A stretch of DNA of 64,000 nt from contig JBMOMD010000043.1 in the NCBI GenBank assembly GCA_049325295.1, positions 11,578 to 75,577 of the forward strand, read 5' to 3'. This stretch comes from Nitrospirota bacterium. Lineage in GTDB: Bacteria > Nitrospirota > Nitrospiria > 2-01-FULL-66-17. Below the pieces are notes generated by a model, which searched no databases, was not told the DNA's origin, and saw nothing but the letters and a program-made list of their open reading frames with translations. Every line of letters begins with the position of its first letter. Within the stretch, counting starts at the first letter, position 1. Below, one piece after another: positions 1,865 to 18,551 of the stretch. The position numbers and the translations under genes were made by a program.

Positions 1865-3327
1865 GACCGCGTTTGGAGCTGCGGCTCCAACAAAAGCTGG
1901 TCATGACGCCGCAGTTGCAGCAGGCGATCCGCCTGTTGCAGCTTTCCCGATTGGAATTGAGTCAGACCGTCTCGCACGAGCTGATGGAAAATCCGGTGCT
2001 GGAGGACGAGCTGTCGCAGGAAGGGCCCGAGGAGGAGGCCCCGAGCGGGGACGAGTCGCCCGCCGTGAAGACCGAGGCCGACGCCGAGGCGTCCGCGCCG
2101 GAGGCCAAGGAAAGCGCCGAGCTCGATCCGCAGGAGTTCAACTGGGACAGCTATTTCGACCAGGATGACTTCGGCCTGTCCGGAGACGGCGACTACGCCA
2201 GGGCGTCGTCCGAGGACATGCCGTCGTTCGAACAGACGCTCAGCAAGGCCGTGTCGCTGGAAGAGCACTTGTTGTGGCAATTGCGCCTGTCGAGCGTGCC
2301 GGAGGAGGACCGGCGGGTGGCGGAAGCGATCATCGGGAACGTGGACGACGACGGGTACTTGCGGGTCACGCTCGATGAGATCGCGCACAGCCTGAACTGC
2401 CCGGCGGCGACCGTGGAGCGGGCGCTCAAGTTGGTGCAAGGTTTCGACCCGCTCGGCGTGGCCGCGCGCGACCTCCGGGAGTGTTTGTTGATTCAGACTC
2501 GTCAGCTCGGGTTGCACGGCTCGCTCGTGGAATCGATCATCACCCACCACTTGCCGGACCTGGAAAAGAAGCGGTTCGCCGCGATCGCCAAGGCGTTGGG
2601 GGCGACGGCGGAAGAGGTGTTTCACGCCGCCAAGGTGATCGAACACCTGGAACCGAAACCGGGGCGGCCGTTCGCCGTGTCCGACAACGTCTACATCACG
2701 CCGGACGTGTTCGTGGTCAAGATCGAGGGCAAATACGCGGTCCTGCTCAACGACGACGGCATGCCGAAATTGCGGATCAACCAGTATTACCGTCGTCTGC
2801 TCAAGAACAAGACGCCGGGCGTGGACACCACCAAGACGTATCTCGAAGACAAATTGCGGTCCGCGTTGTGGCTGATCCGCAGCATCGAGCAGCGCAACCG
2901 CACGATCGTGCGCGTGGCCGAGAGCATCGTGAAGTTCCAGTACGAGTTCATGGAACAGGGCATCAACTATCTCAAGCCGTTGATCCTCAAGCAGGTCGCG
3001 GAGGACATCGGGATGCACGAGTCCACCATCAGCCGCGTGACCACGAATAAGTACATGTATACGCCGCAGGGGATCTTCGAGCTAAAGTTTTTCTTTAATA
3101 GCGGAATCGCCCGCACCCAGGGCGGCGGCGAGGACTTGTCCTCGGTCACGGTGCGCGAGCGCATCCGGCTGTTGGTGGCGAACGAAGATCCGCGACGCCC
3201 CATGACCGACCACGAGTTGGTGGAACGCTTGTCGGCCGAGCAAATCGCCATTGCCCGGCGGACCGTGGCCAAGTACCGCGGGTGGCTGCGCATACCGCCC
3301 GCGAACAAACGCAAACGCGTATTCTAA
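1861..3327 (+). CDS. rpoN: RNA polymerase sigma-54 factor RpoN
   Basis: Full-length sigma-54 with the C-terminal RpoN box (ARRTVAKYR). Conserved position after lptB. Confidence 0.92.
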
Positions 3328-3516
3328 GGAGCCTGTCCATGAATGGCCATCTGCGGCGTTGTCAGTCGGTCTTGCGTGCTCACGGTTTTCGTAGGGGCGT
3401 ATTGCAATACGCCCCTACAGGCGCGCAAGACCTCCTTCCGCCTTGCGACCCACCTTTAAGAAATGAGGTGGCGGAAGTCCCCGAAGGGGGCATCTGGCCA
3501 TCCCTGAACAGGCTCC
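3328..3516 (+). repeat. Structured inverted-repeat element, copy 1 (189 bp). Carries an extra internal insert with the 28-bp perfect palindrome GTAGGGGCGTATTGCAATACGCCCCTAC.
   Basis: Starts 1 nt after the rpoN stop. Terminal arms GGAGCCTGTCCATGAATGGCCATCTGC and GCATCTGGCCATCCCTGAACAGGCTCC are inverted. Same family as the copies at 6205, 38042 and 45346. Confidence 0.7.
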
Positions 3517-3620
3517 GGTATCACAATACTCGGACACATTATATAAATTAAGATGCCCGGAAGGGATTTCCGGGTGGTTGACGCGAGAGTTTGATAACGG
3601 AAAAAGGAGAGGACGGCGCC

Positions 3621-4136
3621 ATGAAGACGACGGTCACAGGGCGGCACATTGAGATCACCCCGGCGCTGCGCGCCCACGTGGAAGAACGCGTTGAGCATCT
3701 GACGCGGTTTTCCGGAGACGTGGCGGACGCCACGGTCGTGCTCTCGGTCGAGAAGTACCGCCATCAGGCCGAAGTGTCGTTGAACGTCAACGGCGTGTTG
3801 ATCCAGGCCAAGGAAGAAACGTCCGAAATGTACGCGTCGATCGACGAGGCCGTGGCCAAGATCGAGCGCCAACTGAAAAAATACAAGGATCGTCAACACA
3901 CCCGTCGTCAGCGTCCCGCGGCGATCATCGGCGAGACGGAACCCGTCGAGTCCGCGCCGGAACCGCTGGAGCGCGAGCGGCCGAAACTTCGGTCCATGAC
4001 GCCGGAGCAGGCGTCCGCGGCGTTGGACGGTGGGGAGACGCCGGTGCTCGTATTTCGTCACGCGGGCACCAAGGAGACCAACGTGGTGTATCGACGGGCC
4101 GACGGTTCCGTGGCATGGATCGACCCCGCGCCGTAG
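3621..4136 (+). CDS. hpf: Ribosome hibernation promoting factor (long HPF / sigma-54 modulation protein)
   Basis: MKTTVTGRHIEITPALR... is a typical HPF/RaiA N-terminus. RBS AGGAGAGG precedes the ATG at 3621. The longer ORF-track start at 3591 is rejected. Confidence 0.85.
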   Translation: MKTTVTGRHIEITPALRAHVEERVEHLTRFSGDVADATVVLSVEKYRHQAEVSLNVNGVLIQAKEETSEMYASIDEAVAKIERQLKKYKDRQHTRRQRPAAIIGETEPVESAPEPLERERPKLRSMTPEQASAALDGGETPVLVFRHAGTKETNVVYRRADGSVAWIDPAP

Positions 4137-5047
4137 CCGAACCCGACGCGCCCAAGCAGGGGGCTCGGCCGGCGGGCGCGAGCGGTCCCCGCATCGTCAT
4201 CGTCAGCGGGCTGTCGGGCGCGGGCAAGAGCCACGTGCTGCACTGTTTCGAGGACGTGGGGTTCTTTTGCGTCGACAACCTGCCCCCGCCGCTCATCCCC
4301 ACGTTCGTGCATTTGTACACCCACGGCGAACCCAAGAACCACCGCATCGCGCTCGGGATCGACATCCGCGGCCGGGAATTTCTCTCGCAAAGCTTCACCG
4401 CGATCGAGCAGCTCAGGCAGGCGGGGTATCGCGTCGAGATGTTGTTCTTGGACGCGCGCGACGACGTGCTCATCCGCCGGTTCTCGGAGACCCGGCGTCC
4501 GCACCCCTTGGCGCACTCGCGGCCCGTGATCGAGGGCATCACGCAGGAACGGGAAGAGCTCCGCGAGCTCCGCGCCCGCGCCGATCTCATCATCGACACG
4601 TCCGATTATTCGGTCCACCAACTCAAGGCGTTCATCGCGCAGCGCTACGTGGAGCGCCGGCACGGTCTGGCCGTGACCGTCATCTCGTTCGGGTACAAGT
4701 TCGGCGTGCCGCGCGAAGCGGACCTGGTCTTCGACGTGCGGTTCCTCAAAAATCCCAACTTCGTGGAAACGCTCCGGCCGCTGTCGGGACAAGACCACGC
4801 GGTGGCGGACTACGTCATGGGCCAGCCCGAAACCGAGGGGTTCCTCACGCGGCTGGAAGGGTTGCTCGAATATTTGTGGCCGTTGTACGAGGCCGAGGGG
4901 CGCACCTATCTGACCATCGCGTTGGGGTGCACGGGCGGCCGGCACCGCTCGGTCGCGTTGGTGGAACGACTGGCCGCGTTGTTGGGCCAGCGCGGGCTGC
5001 AGCCGACCGTCCAACACCGGGACATCGACCGGCACATCGGGAGCTGA
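4115..5047 (+). CDS. rapZ: RNase adapter protein RapZ (P-loop ATPase, YvcJ/YhbJ family)
   Basis: P-loop GLSGAGKS. Conserved position after rpoN-hpf. The exact start is uncertain; ATG 4115 overlaps the hpf 3' end. Confidence 0.8.
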   Translation: MDRPRAVAEPDAPKQGARPAGASGPRIVIVSGLSGAGKSHVLHCFEDVGFFCVDNLPPPLIPTFVHLYTHGEPKNHRIALGIDIRGREFLSQSFTAIEQLRQAGYRVEMLFLDARDDVLIRRFSETRRPHPLAHSRPVIEGITQEREELRELRARADLIIDTSDYSVHQLKAFIAQRYVERRHGLAVTVISFGYKFGVPREADLVFDVRFLKNPNFVETLRPLSGQDHAVADYVMGQPETEGFLTRLEGLLEYLWPLYEAEGRTYLTIALGCTGGRHRSVALVERLAALLGQRGLQPTVQHRDIDRHIGS

Positions 5048-9850: not shown

Positions 9851-11944
9851 GTGATGGCGGCGAAACGCGCGTCGGAGACAACGTCGGATCTTGTCTTTGA
9901 GATCGGCACCGAAGAGCTGCCCTGGACCGTGATCCGCGGCACGATCGCGCACTTGGACGGCGCGGCGCGCGCGGCATTCGAGCGGGCTCGACTGTCATCT
10001 CAAGCAGTCCACGTGTATGGCACGCCGCGGCGGTTGGTCCTGATCGCGGAAGGCGTGGCCACGCGGCAGGCCGAGGCGACCACGCAGGTGGTGGGCCCGC
10101 CCGCGAGCGCGGCGTTTGACGCGGACGGCAAGCCCACCAAGGCGGCCGAAGGATTCGCCAAATCGCAGGGCGTGGCGGTCTCGGATCTGACCGTGGTCAC
10201 GACCGAGAAGGGGCGGTACGTGGCGGTGGTGCGGGCGGAAGCGCGACACGCGGCGTCCGCCGTTCTGAAGGACGTGCTGCCGAAGCTGATCGCCGATCTC
10301 TCGTTTCCGCGCGCCATGAAGTGGGAAACCGGCGGCGCGCGGTTCGCCCGGCCGATCCGCTGGATCGTGGCGCTTTTCGGCGGCAAACCCATTGCGATCA
10401 AATACGGAGGGGTCGCGTCGGGTCTCATGACGCGCGGCCACGCGTTGAGCGCGCCCAAGCCGTTTCGCGCGCCCGCGACGTGGGCCGCGTTGTCGCAGAC
10501 GCTGGAGCGCCGGGGCGTGATCGTGGACCACGCGCGGCGGCGCGCGGTGATCGCCGCGCAACTGGCCGCGGTCGCGCGCGAGGCGGGCGGCCGCCTGGTC
10601 GAGGACGACGATTTGTTGGAGCAAGCCGCATTCCTCACCGAATCGCCCTGCGCGATCGCGGGCGCGTTCGACCCCAAGTATCTCGCGCTGCCGCGCGAAG
10701 TGATCGTAACCGTGATGAAGGAACACCAGGGGTATTTTTCGCTGGTGGACCGTAAGGGCGAACCCTTGCCCGGGTTCATCGCGGTGAGCAACGTCAAACC
10801 CGCGGGCCGCGCCGTGGCTTCGATCCGCGCGGGGTACGAACGCGTGATCCGCGCCCGCCTCGACGACGCCAAGTTTTATTTCGACCAGGACCAGAAGGAG
10901 CGTCTGGCCGACCGCGTGGAGCGGCTCAAGGGGGTGGTGTTCCAGGAAAAACTGGGCACGGTTCACGCCAAGGTGGAACGCGTGGTCGCGTTGGCGCGCG
11001 CGTTGGCGCCGCGCTTCGAGGTGGACGCGGGCCAAGCCGAACGCGCGGCATGGTTGTGCAAGGCGGATCTGACCACCGGCATGGTGCGCGAGTTTCCGGA
11101 GTTGCAGGGCATCATGGGGCGCGAGTACGCCAAACGGCAACACGAGCCCCAGGCCGTGGCCGACGCGATCGGCGAGCACTACCGGCCGCGCTTTGCCGGG
11201 GATCGGTTGCCCGCGAATCCCTTGGCTCAACTCGTGGCCGTGGCGGACAAGGTGGACACCATCGTGCGCTGTTTCGGCGCGGGCCTGATTCCCACCGGAT
11301 CGCAGGACCCGTACGCGCTGCGGCGCCAAGCGTTGGGCGTGGCGCAGATTCTGCGCGAGCGGCCGGTGGTCACGCTCTCGGCGTTGATCGCGCACGCGGC
11401 GCAGCCGGGCACGGACCACGGCACGATTCAGGAGTTCTTCTGCCAGCGGATCGAATCGCAGGCCAAGACCGAGGGGTTCCGCGCGGATTTGATCAACGCG
11501 GTGCTGGACGTGCCGTCCGCGGCCGACGCCCCGCACCTGGCGTTCCGCCGGCTGGCCGCGTTCACCGCGTTTTCGCGGCGTCCCGCGTTCGAATCGTTGA
11601 TGACGGTCTGCAAGCGAGTGATGAACATTTTGCCCGAGCAGTGCCCCGCCGCGATCGACCCCGCGCGGTTCACGCACGACGCGGAGCGCCGCCTGCACGC
11701 GGAGACGCAACGGGCCGCGGCCGCGATTCACGCGCACGAAGCCGAAGGTCGGGATGAGGCCGTGTTGGAGACGTTCGAGTCGCTCAAGCCCGCGATCGAC
11801 GGGTTCTTCACCGACGTGATGGTGATGGCCGAGGATCACGCGGTGCGCGACACGCGGCTGGCATTGCTCAAGGCGGTGAACGATTTGCTGGCGCGGTTCG
11901 CGGATTTCCGCGCGGTGGCGACGACGGAAGCGCAGGCACGCTGA
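9851..11944 (+). CDS. glyS: Glycine--tRNA ligase beta subunit
   Basis: GlyS N-terminus (VFEIGTEELP). Directly follows glyQ. ~697 aa. Confidence 0.9.
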   Translation: MMAAKRASETTSDLVFEIGTEELPWTVIRGTIAHLDGAARAAFERARLSSQAVHVYGTPRRLVLIAEGVATRQAEATTQVVGPPASAAFDADGKPTKAAEGFAKSQGVAVSDLTVVTTEKGRYVAVVRAEARHAASAVLKDVLPKLIADLSFPRAMKWETGGARFARPIRWIVALFGGKPIAIKYGGVASGLMTRGHALSAPKPFRAPATWAALSQTLERRGVIVDHARRRAVIAAQLAAVAREAGGRLVEDDDLLEQAAFLTESPCAIAGAFDPKYLALPREVIVTVMKEHQGYFSLVDRKGEPLPGFIAVSNVKPAGRAVASIRAGYERVIRARLDDAKFYFDQDQKERLADRVERLKGVVFQEKLGTVHAKVERVVALARALAPRFEVDAGQAERAAWLCKADLTTGMVREFPELQGIMGREYAKRQHEPQAVADAIGEHYRPRFAGDRLPANPLAQLVAVADKVDTIVRCFGAGLIPTGSQDPYALRRQALGVAQILRERPVVTLSALIAHAAQPGTDHGTIQEFFCQRIESQAKTEGFRADLINAVLDVPSAADAPHLAFRRLAAFTAFSRRPAFESLMTVCKRVMNILPEQCPAAIDPARFTHDAERRLHAETQRAAAAIHAHEAEGRDEAVLETFESLKPAIDGFFTDVMVMAEDHAVRDTRLALLKAVNDLLARFADFRAVATTEAQAR

Positions 11945-14716: not shown

Positions 14717-14742
14717 AAGACTTCTCATCCGGAGTGGGTGGA

Positions 14743-16080
14743 ATGCTGTCACGGCAGCAGAGTCCACAATCCTCGGGCACGACCTCCTCGCCAAAGCGCG
14801 GCGAGACTCCGAAGTCTCCTGCCTCCACGATCGAGATCAGCCAAGGGCAATCCGGGCGGCTCATCGTGCGCGTGCCGTACACCGCGGAGCGCGTGGCCAA
14901 GATCAAATCTATCACCGGCCGCCAGTGGCATCCGCAGGAAAAGTACTGGTCGGTGCCGCAGTCACCCCAAGCCGTCAACCGTCTGGTGGCTCTCTTTGGC
15001 GGAGAGCGTGTTTCGCTCCTCCCGCCGCTCGACGCGCCACCAATCCAGGATGCCCAGGGGCCGCCCGCGCCACCGGCCTCTCGTCAATCGACGGGAACGA
15101 CCGCCGGGCTTCTCGACGATGTGCGTCGTACGATCCGCAGCCGGCACTACAGCCGACGGACCGAAGAAGCCTATCTGGGCTGGATTCGGCGGTTCCTGCG
15201 GTTTCATGACCAACGTGATCCCGCACAGATGGCTGCCCCGGAGGTATCGCGCTTTCTCAGCACGCTGGCAATCGAGCGCGACGTGTCCGCCTCCACGCAA
15301 AACCAGGCCTTGGCCGCCATCCTCTTCCTGTACAAGGACGTGCTCGACCGCGACCCCGGATGGGTGGAAGGCGTGGTGCGCGCCAAGCGTCCGCAGCGCC
15401 TTCCGGTCGTGCTCTCCAGGCAGGAGGTCCAAGGCCTCTTGTCGGCGCTGCAAGGCGTGCCGTGGATCGCGGGGACCCTGCTCTACGGCGCGGGACTTCG
15501 TCTCATGGAGTGTCTGCGCCTGCGCGTCAAGGACGTGGACTTTGCCCGAGGAGAGATCGTGGTGCGCGAAGGGAAGGGCGGCAAGGACCGGGTCACCATG
15601 CTGCCGTCGGCCGCGGCGCCCAAACTCCGCGCACACCTGGACCGGGTCCGCAAACAGCACACGGCTGACCTGGCCGCAGGCTTCGGCCGGGTCTGGCTGC
15701 CAAACGCCCTAGCCCGCAAGTACCCCAACGCGGACCGCGAGTGGGGGTGGCAGTGGATCTTTCCGGCATCGACCATCTCAGTGGACCCACATAGCGGGGA
15801 GCGACGACGGCACCACCTGCACGAGTCCGTTCCGCAGCGTGCCATCCGCGAGGCCCGGCTCCGTGCTGGGATCACGAGACCCGTCGGTCCTCACACGTTG
15901 CGGCACTGCTTCGCCACGCATCTCCTGGAGTCCGGCCACGACATCCGCACCGTCCAGGAACTTCTCGGCCACAGCGACGTAAGAACCACCATGATCTACA
16001 CCCACGTCCTCAACCGCGGCGGCCTCGGCGTCCAAAGCCCGGCCGACCGGATTCTTGGAGGAGGCAGCGATGAGCGTTAG
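14743..16080 (+). CDS. intI: Integron integrase IntI (tyrosine recombinase with the IntI-specific additional domain) carrying a ~120 aa N-terminal extension
   Basis: [42 protein letters not shown]... matches the IntI-specific insertion. The C-terminal [39 protein letters not shown] is near-identical in pattern to IntI1, as recalled from memory. ATG at 14743 after RBS GGAGTGGGTGGA. Confidence 0.85.
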
Positions 16081-16250
16081 GACGCAGAATTTGTCGTATA
16101 ACATCACTTAACCATCGCTTAATGGAAATCGAGAAAACTGTTGGATTGTTTAATTAATCTGTGGAATAATTCACCATCGTCCTGATCTTGTTAGGACGCA
16201 GTTCTTGCCGTAGTTGCTGAATTCATTAGGACGTCTAATTTTAGTTGGGC
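16076..16250 (+). other. attI-like region. Direct repeats GTTAGGACGCAG (16076-16087, 16190-16201), ATTAGGACGTCT (16225-16236), and core GTTGGGC (16244-16250) at the cassette junction. AT-rich, with a candidate Pc promoter TTGGAT-N17-GAATAAT (16141-16170).
   Basis: GTTRRRY-type integrase-binding half-sites are repeated downstream of the intI stop. Crossover G|TT lies at 16244/16245, where the cassette-1 ORF region begins. Confidence 0.5.
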
Positions 16251-16256
16251 GCCAAT

Positions 16257-17258
16257 ATGACTGAGCGCATCGCTATTGCCGGTGTCTCCGAGCGAGACGT
16301 AGATCTTCTATTGTTGGAGGAGTTTCAGTCTTCCAGCGACTTTCAAGGCTGGTTTGTACGAGAAGCGTTCGGCCCCGACGTTGACTTTGGGCAGTGCACT
16401 GGAGCAAGACGATCAATCACGAACTCTACGGGCGAATCGGATCTCGAGATCTTCTTTGCGAACTCCAAAGGTGAGAAGACCCGGCTCTTGATAGAGAACA
16501 AGGTAAACGCCGGTTTTCAACCACTTCAGGCTGAGCGGTACAAGGAGCGAGGGCTGGGCTACGTTTCTACAGCCCAATGCAACTCCTTTCGAACGGTACT
16601 CATAGCTCCAGCTCGCTACTTCGGTGAATCGGCTTCCCGCAAGGGTTTCGATGGGCGCGTTTCGTATGAGCAGATTCTTCGTTGGTTCGGAGAAGCGGTG
16701 CAACTCGGCGAGAGGCGTCAATACAAAGTCGCATTACTAAGGTCGGCCATTGACAAGGGCACGCTCGGGTACCAACCAGAAGAAGACAAGCCGACAACAG
16801 CGTTTTGGAAGGCGTACTGGCGCTTCGCGCTCGATCGGGCTCCCGAGCTTGAAATGCCGGAGCCCAGTGCAAAACCATCCCGCTCCAGCTTTGTCCATTT
16901 CAGGCCCCGTACTCTGCCGCGCTCGGTAGACATCGTCCACAAGTTCGCATTCGGTCACGTTGATCTGCATTTGCGCGGCATGGGCAAACGTCTTAACGAG
17001 GTGCGCGTTGCCGTGCGACCTTATCTGGCTCCTGCCATGACTGTCGCGGCGGCAGCGAAATCAGCGGCGATACGTATCGAAGTCCCGAAACTACGCGTCA
17101 CGGCGCCATTTGAGGCGCAAACACCAGAGGCAGAACTTGCCCTCGATGCAGCAAAGCGGTTGCACGTATGGTTTATCGACAGCAACGATTTCGCTACGTG
17201 GTTGGTTGGCGCCCAACAATCGGTTGCAGGCGACGCGCCGCGAGCGGCACGTGCCTGA
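16257..17258 (+). CDS. Cassette-encoded PD-(D/E)xK nuclease-superfamily protein of unknown function
   Basis: ~52% GC against a ~67% background. Motif GESDLEIFF...LLIENK (D...ExK) with upstream E/D residues. No RBS, which is common for cassettes. Bounded by GTTGGGC cores. Confidence 0.6.
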   Translation: MTERIAIAGVSERDVDLLLLEEFQSSSDFQGWFVREAFGPDVDFGQCTGARRSITNSTGESDLEIFFANSKGEKTRLLIENKVNAGFQPLQAERYKERGLGYVSTAQCNSFRTVLIAPARYFGESASRKGFDGRVSYEQILRWFGEAVQLGERRQYKVALLRSAIDKGTLGYQPEEDKPTTAFWKAYWRFALDRAPELEMPEPSAKPSRSSFVHFRPRTLPRSVDIVHKFAFGHVDLHLRGMGKRLNEVRVAVRPYLAPAMTVAAAAKSAAIRIEVPKLRVTAPFEAQTPEAELALDAAKRLHVWFIDSNDFATWLVGAQQSVAGDAPRAARA

Positions 17259-17273
17259 ACCGAAGCGTTGGGC
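17211..17273 (+). other. attC recombination site of cassette 1 (63 bp)
   Basis: GCCCAACAATCGGTTGCAGGCGACGCGCCGCGAGCGGCACGTGCCTGAACCGAAGCGTTGGGC. R''=GCCCAAC and R'=GTTGGGC, with imperfectly complementary L arms and bulged bases. Strongly resembles aadA-type attC, recalled from memory. Confidence 0.65.
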
Positions 17274-17290
17274 GCCATAACAGAAGAACC

Positions 17291-17644
17291 ATGAACGTTC
17301 GCATTGCGACAACCGATTCCGAGATTGCCATCTGCTATCCAGTAATGCGGGAGCTTCGTCCGCACATCGCGGAAGAGCGATTTCTCTCCCGGATCCGGAG
17401 TCAAGAAGGTGCAGGCTATCGGCTCGCCTATGTGCAAGAACCAAATGGCGTAGTTGCGGTTGCTGGATTCCGAGTCGGTGAGAATCTGGCTTGGGGGCGT
17501 TTTCTGTACGTCGATGATCTTGTAACCCTTCCCGCACACCGATCAAAGGGCTATGGTGCCAAGTTGCTTTCGTGGCTCAAAGAACAAGCCGCAAAGGAAG
17601 GTTGTGAGTGCTTGGTCCGGGGTCGGACCCGCGCAATGTGTTGA
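17291..17644 (+). pseudogene. GNAT family N-acetyltransferase, 3'-truncated by insertion of the RAYT/IS element
   Basis: GNAT motif A (HRSKGYGAKLL) is present. The protein ends 9 aa after GCECL, with the beta5-beta7 region missing. The sequence diverges exactly where the element's inverted repeat begins (17614). ~53% GC. Confidence 0.55.
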
Positions 17645-18551
17645 AAAGTCATCCGCCTTTGGGCACAATGAGGCCGCTGGAGGTCTTGGATCGCACGTTG
17701 TAGAGCCAAAACTACGCTGCAGGGAGGAAGCGTCATGCCGCGCGCCCATCGCTATTTTCTTCCCCATCACATCTGGCACATCACGCACCGGTGTCATCAA
17801 CGGGCGTTTCTCCTGAAGTTCGCGCGTGACCGCCGGCGCTGGCGGCAGTGGCTGTTTGAGGCCACGAAGCGGTTTCGGCTGTGTGTGCTCAATTACGTCG
17901 TCACGTCCAACCATATTCATCTCTTGGTCCGGGATCAGGGGCGAGGCGAGATCGCGCGCGCGATGCAGCTCATCGCGGGACGCACGGCCCAGGAATACAA
18001 TCAACGCAAAGGGCGACAGGGAGCGTTCTGGGAGGATCGGTATCATGCCACGGCGGTCGACACGGAGAGCTACCTGGCCCGCTGTCTGGTCTACATTGAT
18101 CTGAACATGGTGCGGGCGGGCGCCGTGGCGCACCCGCGTGACTGGGACGCGGGCGGCTATCACGAGCTGCATGCGCCACCCACGCGGTACGCGATCATCG
18201 ATCAGCCGGCGCTCACCGAGTTGCTCGGCCTGAAGAGTCTCCAGCAACTACAGGAGACTCACGCGCTGTGGATCGAGGAGGCGATCCGGGCGGGAGGTGG
18301 ACCACGCGATCCGATGTGGACCGAGAGCGTGGCGGTCGGCCGCGCCGAGTTCGTGCGAGATGTCCAGGTCGAGCTGGGGAGCAAGGCGCGATATCGGGAG
18401 GTCGTGGCCGAAGGACAGGCGCACGTGCTGCGCGAACCGCCGACCCTCTACGGGGCATTTTGACGGGCAAAAGGCCGCGCGAAGGGCTCAACCGTCCGCC
18501 GTGGCGGACCAAAACCTCGAGACATCAATCGATTGCGCTGGTCCGACCCCG
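17614..18551 (+). mobile_element. RAYT / IS200-IS605-like element bounded by 12-bp inverted repeats CGGGGTCGGACC (17618-17629) and GGTCCGACCCCG (18540-18551)
   Basis: Left end GGTCCGGGGTCGGACC is itself a hairpin. A second GTCCGCC-gt-GGCGGAC hairpin sits at 18494-18509. Inserted inside cassette 2. Confidence 0.5.
17735..18463 (+). CDS. Y1 HUH transposase, REP-associated tyrosine transposase (RAYT / IS200-like TnpA), 242 aa
   Basis: HUH motif SNHIHLLV and the catalytic-Y helix VYIDLNMVRAGAV (YIxxNPVRAGLV-like). N-terminus HIWHITHRCHQRAFLL matches the Transposase_17 family. Confidence 0.75.
   Translation: MPRAHRYFLPHHIWHITHRCHQRAFLLKFARDRRRWRQWLFEATKRFRLCVLNYVVTSNHIHLLVRDQGRGEIARAMQLIAGRTAQEYNQRKGRQGAFWEDRYHATAVDTESYLARCLVYIDLNMVRAGAVAHPRDWDAGGYHELHAPPTRYAIIDQPALTELLGLKSLQQLQETHALWIEEAIRAGGGPRDPMWTESVAVGRAEFVRDVQVELGSKARYREVVAEGQAHVLREPPTLYGAF

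What the first reader, a model, noticed from the sequence alone, without database searches (positions are those of the whole stretch)
16257..17258. First cassette encodes an uncharacterised PD-(D/E)xK nuclease-fold protein, a candidate single-gene defence or DNA-processing function
It is a 333-aa protein with an N-terminal PD-(D/E)xK-like core (E13, D16, D63 in GESDLEIFF, E81-x-K83 in LLIENK) followed by a ~250 aa domain of unknown function. It has no RBS, is low-GC, and is bounded by integron cores. Integron cassettes are known reservoirs of phage-defence and toxin genes. I cannot assign this protein to a named family.
Basis: partly seen in the sequence, partly recalled or inferred. Interest (0 to 1): 0.65.

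Follow-up and report, generated by a model that had tools for sequence, protein, structure and literature searches.

The report
Mobile integron cassette encoding two-domain nuclease
The first and only intact cassette of a chromosomal integron encodes an uncharacterised two-domain enzyme, a DNA-cutting (restriction-enzyme-like) domain joined to a basic chaperone-shaped domain; its family moves between distant bacteria and archaea and often sits among anti-virus genes, so it is a reasonable but untested candidate defence gene.

Summary
ORF 16257-17258 (+) encodes 333 aa at 53% GC in a 65% GC genome. It is a true integron cassette. It lies next to an integron integrase (TIGR02249, 474 bits). It ends in a 63-nt attC hairpin (-35 kcal/mol, z -8). 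Its similarity to a second metagenomic copy starts and stops exactly at the two GTTGGGC cores.

Residues 1-170 are a PD-(D/E)xK nuclease of Pfam family PDDEXK_4. D62, E80-x-K82, E12/D14/D16 and Q91-xxx-Y95 are invariant in 74 homologues. The fold resembles the FokI, BspD6I, NucS, Hna and Cap4 cleavage domains.

The family is rare and sporadic across many bacterial phyla and archaea. It occurs on plasmids, an ICE, a Tn3 transposon and integrons, and in none of 50,697 phages. It has no conserved partner gene and no methyltransferase. Ten of 15 annotated non-cassette contexts hold restriction or defence genes.

Best reading: a stand-alone, mobile defence-type endonuclease of an undescribed architecture. 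Function is untested. Interest is moderate.

The parts
14734..16080 (+). Integron integrase gene intI, on the same strand as the cassette. The IntI-homologous part is aa 126-440. The first ~125 aa are an N-terminal extension, if the GTG at 14734 is the true start.
   Evidence: NCBIfam TIGR02249 integron integrase, 474.5 bits (cut-off 265), covering 1-315/315 of the model. Pfam Phage_integrase 4e-35 and Phage_int_SAM_4 2.6e-28.
16076..16250 (+). attI region. It is AT-rich and carries GTTAGGACGCAG at 16076-16087 (overlapping the intI stop codon) and at 16190-16201, and ATTAGGACGTC at 16225-16235. These are putative integrase-binding repeats. The crossover core GTTGGGC lies at 16244-16250.
   Evidence: Read directly from the sequence. 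Core listed. Similarity to the second cassette copy (L088) begins at this core. The binding role of the repeats is inferred.
16245..17267 (+). The gene cassette as a mobile unit, 1023 bp, running from the TT of the attI-side core to the G of the attC R' core.
   Evidence: DNA similarity between the window and L088 (90% nt within the ORF) starts and stops at these cores, and the flanks are unrelated.
16257..17258 (+). ORF of 333 aa, the two-domain nuclease.
   Evidence: dN/dS = 0.14 against the L088 copy. 268 homologues found, the listed top hits aligning over almost the whole length.
16257..16766 (+). N-terminal PD-(D/E)xK nuclease domain, aa 1-170. Invariant residues are E12 R13 D14 D16 (helix 1), G59 E60 D62 (start of strand 2), E80 N81 K82 (end of strand 3) and Q88 Q91 Y95 (following helix).
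16767..16787 (+). Linker, aa 171-177 (G171 Y172 Q173 ... D177). It is conserved in sequence but predicted with low confidence.
   Evidence: pLDDT below 50 at residues 172-175. At least 97% conservation.
16788..17228 (+). C-terminal domain, aa 178-324, with topology alpha-beta-beta-beta-alpha-beta-beta-alpha-alpha: the type III secretion chaperone/YbjN-like fold. It is basic. Conserved polar residues are K206, H228, K229, D236, K268, S269 and R273.
17211..17273 (+). attC recombination site of the cassette, from R'' GCCCAAC at 17211-17217 to R' GTTGGGC at 17267-17273. It overlaps the last ~16 codons and the stop codon.
   Evidence: Inverted repeat I9. Pattern plus arm-pairing scan. Bottom-strand hairpin of -35.3 kcal/mol, z = -8.2, with bulges; the top strand folds at -32.1.
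17291..17644 (+). Neighbouring feature, not part of the cassette: a 3'-truncated GNAT acetyltransferase ORF of 117 aa. It is the remnant of a second cassette and no attC follows it.
   Evidence: Pfam Acetyltransf_1 6e-10. No second attC found. The reading frame runs into the left inverted repeat of the RAYT element.

Best explanation
The cassette encodes a self-contained, horizontally mobile DNA endonuclease that most likely acts against incoming foreign DNA, as a restriction-like single-gene defence.

The N-terminal domain is a small FokI/Mrr/NucS-type PD-(D/E)xK cleavage module with a complete metal-binding and catalytic set: D62 and E80-x-K82, supported by E12/D14/D16 and Q91-xxx-Y95. Modules of this kind have little specificity of their own and normally cut only when paired.

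The basic C-terminal domain has the fold of dimeric peptide-binding chaperones. I propose that it supplies what the cleavage module lacks. It would pair two molecules, and it would bind the target, most simply DNA carrying a feature that host DNA lacks. This would explain why no methyltransferase is needed.

Shown here: the gene is intact and under purifying selection; it is a real integron cassette; the two folds; the invariant catalytic residues; the mobility; the lack of a partner gene; and the genomic company it keeps.

Inferred: nuclease activity, the DNA substrate, dimerisation, the role of the C-terminal domain, and the defence phenotype.
For: - Functional gene: dN/dS is 0.14 between two cassette copies.
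- Stand-alone: an all-against-all comparison of neighbours in 77 loci finds no shared partner. No Pfam family occurs in more than 3 of each 132-gene half of the 264 adjacent genes. The cassette has room for one ORF only.
- Mobile and accessory: it is an integron cassette in the window, in L088 and in L048. It is ICE cargo beside an EcoRI-type methylase and a GmrSD/HNH gene, and a Tn3 passenger. It occurs on 12 plasmids and in at least 100 of 185,579 species genomes across many phyla and archaea. Its GC is 12 points below the host's.
- Host side: there are no hits in 50,697 phage genomes.
- Company: restriction or defence genes lie within 8-10 kb in L001, L002, L003, L005, L089, L091, L092, L095, L096 and L097. 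They include BrxL, a FokI domain, TIR, Mrr_cat/AspBHI, GmrSD-HNH, AbiEi, NERD, AAA_15/21+HNH, ScoMcrA-SBD-HNH and PIN-TPR.
- C-terminal domain binds something acidic: family median pI is 9.0, against 5.5 for the nuclease domain. H228-K229, S269 and R273 are invariant or nearly so and lie on strands.
- Modularity: haloarchaeal relatives keep the nuclease module but carry a different C-terminal half. Rare variants add an N-terminal extension with weak winged-helix similarity.
- Prior: about 18% of the V. cholerae integron cassettes of unknown function that were tested are anti-phage, and several of those are single-gene nuclease fusions (10.1101/2024.07.02.601686).
Against: - There is no experimental evidence of any kind.
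- No known defence family matches. PADLOC gives only a ~45-residue, E~2e-3 hit to the untested candidate PDC-S26. NCBIfam and PHROGs give nothing.
- The context sample is small, not random and generously scored. Two contexts are plainly housekeeping (L004, L006). The 264 adjacent genes in 77 genomes are a mix with many ordinary metabolic genes. No background rate was computed.
- Inter-domain geometry is uncertain (pTM 0.59).
Confidence: 0.4

Rival explanations
1. Trigger-activated (abortive-infection type) nuclease. The C-terminal chaperone-fold domain binds a phage or plasmid protein, as type III secretion chaperones bind effectors, PsiB binds RecA and DR1245 binds the SSB-like DdrB. This binding releases or pairs the nuclease domains, which then degrade DNA indiscriminately.
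For: The C-terminal fold matches peptide- and protein-binding chaperones, PsiB and DR1245. The peptide-binding chaperone role of this fold class is described in conflict systems (PMC9503650). There is no methyltransferase or partner, so self-protection must come from regulation. The linker is conserved but flexible. The gene is tolerated in the first, best-expressed cassette position in two integrons.
Against: The domain is basic (median pI 9.0). From general knowledge, classical chaperones of this fold are acidic. Its conserved surface residues are polar or basic rather than hydrophobic. No trigger is known.
Confidence: 0.2
2. A structure-specific DNA repair or recombination nuclease (NucS/EndoMS-, Hjc- or VRR-NUC-like) that is simply an accessory housekeeping enzyme with no role in conflict.
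For: NucS/EndoMS, Hjc and VRR-NUC are among the structural neighbours. Some loci sit among ordinary genes. One plasmid copy lies between ssb and radC. Fold relatives PsiB and DR1245 bind RecA and DdrB.
Against: The distribution is very sparse and patchy, with relatives confirmed in only about 100 of 185,579 species genomes by a pattern-based scan. The gene is carried on integrons, ICE, Tn3 and plasmids, and has atypical GC. It shows no conserved synteny with any repair gene.
Confidence: 0.15
3. A function that serves the mobile element rather than the host. Examples are help with establishment after transfer (leading-region function), exclusion of competing elements, or an addiction-type nuclease.
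For: On the Roseicitreum plasmid the gene sits in a ParB - ssb - X - DUF932 - radC block, typical of regions that enter first during conjugation. The C-terminal fold is shared with the leading-region protein PsiB. The gene is also cargo of an ICE and of Tn3.
Against: Only one of about 18 annotated contexts looks like this. There is no linked antidote gene. Many copies are chromosomal and away from any visible element.
Confidence: 0.1
4. An orphan or classical Type II restriction endonuclease whose methyltransferase lies elsewhere.
For: The restriction-endonuclease fold. One locus has an EcoRI-type methylase two genes away.
Against: DNA methyltransferase families were seen in only about 4 of 264 adjacent genes. 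This is a minimum, because only the 25 most frequent families of each half were listed. The window cassette contains none. An unprotected Type II enzyme in the first cassette position would be lethal (inference).
Confidence: 0.03

Closest known systems
Pfam PF14281 (PDDEXK_4), a PD-(D/E)xK family of unknown function defined by Steczkiewicz et al. 2012 (PMC3424549)
   Same: The N-terminal domain matches above the curated cut-off, as do 66 of 74 family members. It carries the same D...ExK core.
   Different: Pfam covers only residues ~58-149. The family is listed with function 'Unknown'. The C-terminal domain is not part of it.
PADLOC candidate single-gene system PDC-S26
   Same: 54 of 74 family members give weak hits (best 2e-6) over the nuclease core motif.
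   Different: The match covers only ~45 residues of ~400-residue profiles, and E is ~2e-3 for the window protein. The family is not a member. From my knowledge, PDC-S26 is itself a prediction and has not been validated.
Cleavage domains of Type IIS and Type IV restriction enzymes and related defence nucleases (FokI, N.BspD6I/R.BspD6I, MspJI, AspBHI, Hna, Cap4, Can2, Shedu SduA)
   Different: Sequence identity is 8-14%. None carries a type III secretion chaperone/YbjN-fold domain. Here there is no recognisable DNA-reader domain (SRA, EVE, winged helix) and no nucleotide-sensor domain (SAVED/CARF).
Type III secretion chaperone / YbjN superfamily ('TY-chaperones': CesT, SycN, SicP, SpcU, AmyR/YbjN, DUF2170, DR1245, PsiB)
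   Different: No sequence or profile similarity to any Pfam family of this superfamily. The domain is basic rather than acidic (the acidity of classical chaperones is general knowledge). It is fused to a nuclease instead of standing alone.
Single-gene nuclease-fusion defence cassettes of the Vibrio cholerae chromosomal integron (Epona, Divona, Damona; Darracq et al., 10.1101/2024.07.02.601686)
   Same: Integron cassettes that encode one protein combining a restriction-type nuclease domain with an unrelated second domain.
   Different: The domains differ (Mrr_cat+holin, DUF4365+Mrr+crr6, DUF6602). Those systems have phage phenotypes; this one has none measured.

Membership tests
Integron gene cassette | An attC site at the 3' end with inverse core RYYYAAC and core GTTRRRY, imperfect inverted repeats, and a bottom-strand hairpin with bulged bases | tested here: met
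   The attC spans 17211-17273 (GCCCAAC ... GTTGGGC). Arms of 25 nt are 76% complementary. The hairpin folds at -35.3 kcal/mol, z -8.2, with two single-base bulges.
Integron gene cassette | Insertion at attI next to an integron integrase | tested here: met
   TIGR02249 integron integrase, 474.5 bits, ends at 16080. The core GTTGGGC lies at 16244. The integrase is co-directional with the cassette, as in the 'inverted integrase' group (PMC3575428).
Integron gene cassette | A discrete mobile unit: the same cassette occurs in a different context and similarity breaks at the cores | tested here: met
   Similarity between the window and L088 starts at GTTGGGCG and ends at GTTGGGCG/GTTAGGCG, and the flanks are unrelated.
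PD-(D/E)xK nuclease superfamily / Pfam PDDEXK_4 | Profile match above the curated threshold | tested here: met
   24.1 bits against a cut-off of 22.3. 66 of 74 homologues match, best E 7.8e-8.
PD-(D/E)xK nuclease superfamily / Pfam PDDEXK_4 | Catalytic D ... (D/E)-x-K on strands 2 and 3 of an alpha-beta-beta-beta-alpha-beta core | tested here: met
PD-(D/E)xK nuclease superfamily / Pfam PDDEXK_4 | Metal-dependent phosphodiesterase activity | not testable with these tools
   Needs biochemistry.
PADLOC PDC-S26 or any known defence system in PADLOC-DB v2 | Significant full-length match to the system's protein model | tested here: not met
   Only residues 49-97 match, at E 0.0018. No other PADLOC family matches.
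Type II restriction-modification endonuclease | A linked cognate DNA methyltransferase | tested here: not met
   The cassette contains none. DNA methyltransferase families were seen in about 4 of 264 adjacent genes across 77 loci.
Type IV (modification-dependent) restriction enzyme | A stand-alone nuclease without a methyltransferase | tested here: met
   No conserved partner gene.
Type IV (modification-dependent) restriction enzyme | A recognised modified-DNA reader domain and modification-dependent cleavage | tested here: inconclusive
Type III secretion chaperone / YbjN superfamily | A five-stranded meander sheet with helices packed on one face | tested here: met
Type III secretion chaperone / YbjN superfamily | Sequence-profile membership in a family of the superfamily (CesT, YbjN, DUF2170, etc.) | tested here: not met
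   No Pfam match in the C-terminal half for any of the 74 members. A PDB profile search found nothing.
Type III secretion chaperone / YbjN superfamily | Homodimer that binds an extended partner peptide | not testable with these tools
   No multimer prediction or binding assay is available.
Defence-island gene (guilt by association) | Most family members lie near known defence genes, more often than background | tested here: inconclusive
   10 of 15 annotated non-cassette contexts have restriction or defence genes within 8-10 kb. The sample is small and no background was computed. Adjacent genes in the 77 genome loci are heterogeneous.
Toxin of a toxin-antitoxin pair | An adjacent small antidote gene | tested here: not met
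   The cassette holds one ORF. No conserved neighbour was found.

The most novel reading that the evidence does not exclude
The basic chaperone-fold C-terminal domain is a new kind of specificity or sensor module. It would act either as a reader of a foreign DNA feature or as a trap for a phage or plasmid protein such as an SSB or RecA-like factor. It would switch on a FokI-type cleavage domain within a single polypeptide. This would define a new single-gene immune family spread across bacteria and archaea and traded as integron cassettes.
Probability: 0.3. Interest if true: 0.65.

Novelty: new variant of a known kind. Interest (0 to 1): 0.42.

Why it matters
Three 2025 studies showed that integron cassettes are a reservoir of compact anti-phage genes, but almost all of the tested cassettes come from Vibrio and clinical integrons. 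This cassette comes from a high-GC environmental genome with a co-directional integrase. The family was independently captured as the first cassette of another such integron, in an Aminicenantes genome.

If it defends, three things follow. It would add a family present in many phyla and in archaea. It would show that a chaperone-type fold can serve as the control domain of a nuclease. It would also provide a small (1 kb), partner-free nuclease scaffold.

If it does not defend, it is one more uncharacterised PD-(D/E)xK protein, and the finding is routine.

Tried and rejected
- Sequence searches of the protein and of the family profile against PDB chains gave only chance hits (IRF, malectin).
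- Foldseek against PDB gave nothing at E <= 1e-3. The afdb50 library was not available.
- NCBIfam and PHROGs gave no hit.
- I looked for a conserved partner gene by all-against-all BLAST of neighbours in 77 loci. There is none. The commonest neighbour family is tyrosine recombinases, in 7 loci.
- I tested whether homologues are generally integron cassettes. Only L048 and L050, 2 of 78 genome loci, have an attC right after the gene by my strict scan. The Marinobacter and Vibrio sonorensis loci show no attC-like repeats. Cassette status is therefore occasional and not typical of the family.
- I looked for further attC sites in the window and found none. The array has one intact cassette plus a truncated GNAT.
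- A sigma-70 promoter scan of the attI region found nothing upstream of the ORF.
- N-terminal extensions of rare longer variants gave no Pfam family. One gave a weak AsnC-type HTH similarity and one gave nothing.
- The Y1 transposase genes downstream of the two cassette copies are not related to each other.
- Full-text literature searches for PDDEXK_4/PF14281 and for YbjN together with nuclease and anti-phage found no description of this architecture.

Full report
**1. The observation**

An ORF runs from ATG 16257 to TGA 17258 on the + strand and encodes 333 aa. A longer TTG start at 16245 lies inside the recombination core, and homologues do not support it. The 1-kb bin containing the ORF has 53% GC, against 62-69% for the surrounding 30 kb. 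There is no purine-rich Shine-Dalgarno run before the ATG.

In an alignment of 74 homologues (43-90% identical to the window protein) the invariant columns include:
- E12, R13, D14, D16
- G59, E60, D62
- E80, N81, K82
- Q88, Q91, A92, Y95

**2. It is a genuine integron cassette**

The gene immediately upstream (14734-16080, same strand) is an integron integrase. It scores 474.5 bits on NCBIfam TIGR02249 (cut-off 265) over the whole model.

The 165-bp AT-rich spacer carries GTTAGGACGCAG twice (16076, 16190) and ATTAGGACGTC once (16225), then the core GTTGGGC at 16244.

At the 3' end of the ORF, GCCCAAC (17211) and GTTGGGC (17267) bound a 63-nt imperfect palindrome (I9). Its bottom strand folds into a bulged hairpin of -35.3 kcal/mol, with z = -8.2 against shuffles. 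The top strand folds at -32.1 kcal/mol.

The strongest evidence comes from a metagenomic contig (L088) that carries a 90%-identical copy of the gene. DNA similarity between the two begins exactly at the first core and ends exactly at the attC core, and both flanks are unrelated. Between the two copies dN/dS is 0.14, so the gene is maintained by selection.

The integrase is co-directional with the cassette. This arrangement is known from the 'inverted integrase' group of integrons (PMC3575428).

No second attC exists in the window. The next ORF is a GNAT acetyltransferase, 17291-17644. It is cut short where a REP-associated tyrosine transposase gene with 27-nt inverted repeats begins (I1, 77, 85). 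The finding's cassette is therefore the first and only intact one.

**3. Anatomy of the protein**

AlphaFold2 with the family alignment gives a model with mean pLDDT 90.8 but pTM 0.59. That means two confident domains whose mutual orientation is uncertain.

- the Fbxo7 FP domain (7.4)
- SycN, SicP, SpcU, STM2138, ExsC
- PsiB (6.2; 14% identity)
- AmyR/YbjN (6.2)
- DR1245 and DUF1054
- the T4 MotA DNA-binding domain (5.5)

Classical chaperones of this fold are small, acidic dimers (general knowledge). This domain is basic instead. The family median pI is 9.0, and 73% of members exceed pI 8. The nuclease domain has a median pI of 5.5. The conserved C-terminal residues are polar or basic and mostly lie on or beside the strands: K206, H228, K229, D236, K268, S269, R273. 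The seven-residue linker (GYQ...D) is conserved but poorly predicted.

**4. The family**

The word-indexed search found 268 homologues. The 120 listed are mostly 310-345 aa and are named 'hypothetical' wherever a source gives a name.

An exhaustive phmmer search with the C-terminal domain alone found 577 cluster representatives at E <= 1e-3. Nearly all carry the domain at about residues 170-310 of a ~320-aa protein, so the two domains travel together. Exceptions:
- a fragment with two tandem C-terminal domains (P0121)
- a few proteins with 130-250-aa N-terminal extensions (P0128, P0237, P0246), one of which has weak AsnC-type helix-turn-helix similarity
- haloarchaeal proteins that share only the nuclease module (hhalign probability 99.9% over residues 3-169) and have an unrelated C-terminal half

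A pattern scan of one genome per species (185,579 species) confirmed 100 loci, which is a lower bound. They include Planctomycetota, Lysobacterales, Acidobacteriota, Cyanobacteria, Campylobacterota, Bacteroidota, Spirochaetes, Patescibacteria, Bacillota, Alphaproteobacteria, ANME-1/Methanophagales, Methanosarcinales and haloarchaea. The family is therefore rare, patchy and horizontally transferred.

tblastn finds it on 12 plasmids, five of them conjugative. PGAP calls some of these copies 'PD-(D/E)XK nuclease family protein'. It is found in none of 50,697 phage genomes.

**5. Genomic company**

An all-against-all comparison of predicted neighbours in 77 non-redundant loci found no partner gene. 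The most frequent neighbour family is tyrosine recombinases, in 7 loci. Pfam scans of the 264 genes flanking the homologue (two on each side, run as two halves of 132) found no family in more than three members of either half. The list mixes housekeeping enzymes with ResIII, EcoRI-type and N6/N4 methylases, McrBC, Fic, UvrD/PDDEXK_1, integrases and a phage terminase.

Eighteen contexts have good annotation.
- Three are integron cassettes:
  - the window
  - L088
  - L048, an Aminicenantes genome where the gene is again the first cassette after a co-directional integrase, with its own attC hairpin at z = -8.8
- Ten hold restriction or defence genes within 8-10 kb:
  - Marinobacter: Mrr_cat, IS21
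  - Cognatilysobacter: AspBHI-like
  - a Thioalkalivibrio ICE: EcoRI methylase and GmrSD-HNH directly upstream
  - a metagenomic island with BrxL, a FokI domain, another PDDEXK_4, TIR-TPR and GIY-YIG
  - a Vibrio plasmid: Fic, HNH
  - an Aminobacter plasmid: ATPase + exonuclease, WYL, RecB-like
  - a Bradyrhizobium plasmid: AbiEi, TIR
  - three metagenomic contigs with PIN-TPR-GreABC; with NERD, HNH_2 and AAA_15/21+HNH_5; and with SNF2, HNH_2 and ScoMcrA-SBD-HNH
- One copy is a Tn3 passenger.
- One lies in a ParB-ssb-X-DUF932-radC block on a plasmid.
- One lies in an unclear variable region.
- Two lie among housekeeping genes.

This is suggestive.

**6. How it most likely works**

*Shown.* The gene is intact, selected and mobile. 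It encodes a complete PD-(D/E)xK active site on a small cleavage-type domain, fused to a basic chaperone-fold domain. It has no methyltransferase, antidote or other partner.

*Inferred.* The protein cuts DNA. The cleavage module needs to be paired and directed, and the C-terminal domain does both.

Because self-DNA is not protected by methylation, cutting must depend on something foreign. The simplest reading, given the basic charge and polar conserved patch, is direct recognition of a DNA feature that the host lacks, which is restriction-like, Type IV logic (confidence 0.4). The main alternative is that the domain uses the peptide-binding habit of its fold to sense a phage or plasmid protein and then releases the nuclease, which is abortive-infection logic (0.2). 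It is notable that two proteins of this fold bind DNA-metabolism proteins: PsiB binds RecA, and DR1245 binds DdrB.

Less likely readings are:
- an accessory repair or recombination nuclease (0.15)
- a function serving the carrier element (0.1)
- an orphan Type II enzyme (0.03)

The gene sits in the first, normally best-expressed cassette position in two unrelated integrons. This argues that the nuclease is not indiscriminately toxic (inference).

**7. Comparison with what is known**

The N-terminal domain is a member of Pfam PDDEXK_4, a family still listed with unknown function (PMC3424549).

The protein is not a member of any PADLOC system. The weak hits to the candidate PDC-S26 cover about 45 residues of the catalytic core only.

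In domain logic it resembles Type IIS/IV restriction enzymes and single-gene nuclease defences such as Shedu. It also resembles the nuclease-fusion cassettes found to be anti-phage in the V. cholerae integron (10.1101/2024.07.02.601686). It shares no specificity domain with any of them.

I found no description of a nuclease fused to a chaperone-fold domain in the searchable literature. That search does not cover subscription journals or supplements.

**8. Verdict**

It is a new domain combination within a familiar kind of gene: a mobile stand-alone restriction-type nuclease and candidate defence. Nothing about it is established functionally. Many such candidates exist, so interest is moderate (0.42). 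It would rise if a phenotype and a role for the C-terminal domain were shown.

Noticed in passing
window 14734-16080: The integron integrase is on the same strand as the cassette ('inverted integrase' arrangement). If the GTG at 14734 is the start, it has a ~125-aa N-terminal extension with a weak HARP-like Pfam hit (E 0.027). The first GTTAGGACGCAG repeat overlaps its stop codon.
   Followed up: partly
window 17618-18551: A REP-associated tyrosine transposase-like gene lies at 17735-18463 (NCBIfam REP_Tyr_transpos 69 bits, below the cut-off of 80). It is flanked by 27-nt inverted repeats, 85% complementary, at 17618-17644 and 18525-18551. The left repeat coincides with the premature end of the GNAT ORF 17291-17644, so the element or a rearrangement appears to have truncated the second cassette and removed its attC.
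   Followed up: partly
L088 1769-2110 and window 17735-18463: Both known copies of this cassette are followed within a few hundred bases by a Y1 (IS200/RAYT-type) transposase gene. The two transposases are essentially unrelated (21% identity over 53 aa). This may be coincidence, or single-strand transposons may favour attC hairpins.
   Followed up: partly
L048 2900-4320 (Aminicenantes MAG): An independent, low-GC integron has the same layout: a co-directional integrase ending at 3033, GTTAGAT at 3253, a 37%-identical family member at 3271-4191 as the first cassette, and a 131-nt attC at 4186-4316 (hairpin z -8.8).
   Followed up: yes
L017 489-1031, L053 1681-2241, L060 10912-11499, L018 10929-11504: In 4 of 77 loci from very distant taxa (two ANME-type archaea, a Bacteroidota and a Campylobacterota) a second small protein lies directly beside the family member on the same strand. 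The four are 40-47% identical to one another and carry a 'WDAYDL ... KIEVKS' motif that looks like another D...ExK nuclease core. They lie upstream in the archaea and downstream in the bacteria. No Pfam family matches.
   Followed up: partly
L081, L084, L087 (haloarchaea), gene at ~10000-10950: These proteins share only the N-terminal nuclease module (residues 3-169, hhalign probability 99.9%). Their ~160-aa C-terminal halves are unrelated in sequence and have no Pfam match, which suggests the specificity domain is swapped.
   Followed up: partly
P0121, P0128, P0237, P0246 (metagenomic proteins): These are rare architectural variants. P0121 is a fragment with two tandem copies of the C-terminal domain. 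The others are full-length proteins with 130-250-aa N-terminal extensions. P0128's extension has weak AsnC-type helix-turn-helix similarity (E 0.003 to PDB 4czd).
   Followed up: partly
L094 1564-2355 and L096 8175-9485: DUF6946 (PF22187) proteins lie close to two family members. In L096 the protein is fused to an HD_4 domain and lies immediately downstream. One family member also gave a weak DUF6946 hit (E 0.051). This may indicate a remote relationship or a recurrent association.
   Followed up: no
L090 (Roseicitreum plasmid pRA04) 1-14698: A family member sits between ssb and a DUF932 gene, in a ParB - ssb - X - DUF932 - radC block that resembles the early-entering region of conjugative elements. 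The C-terminal fold is shared with the leading-region protein PsiB.
   Followed up: no
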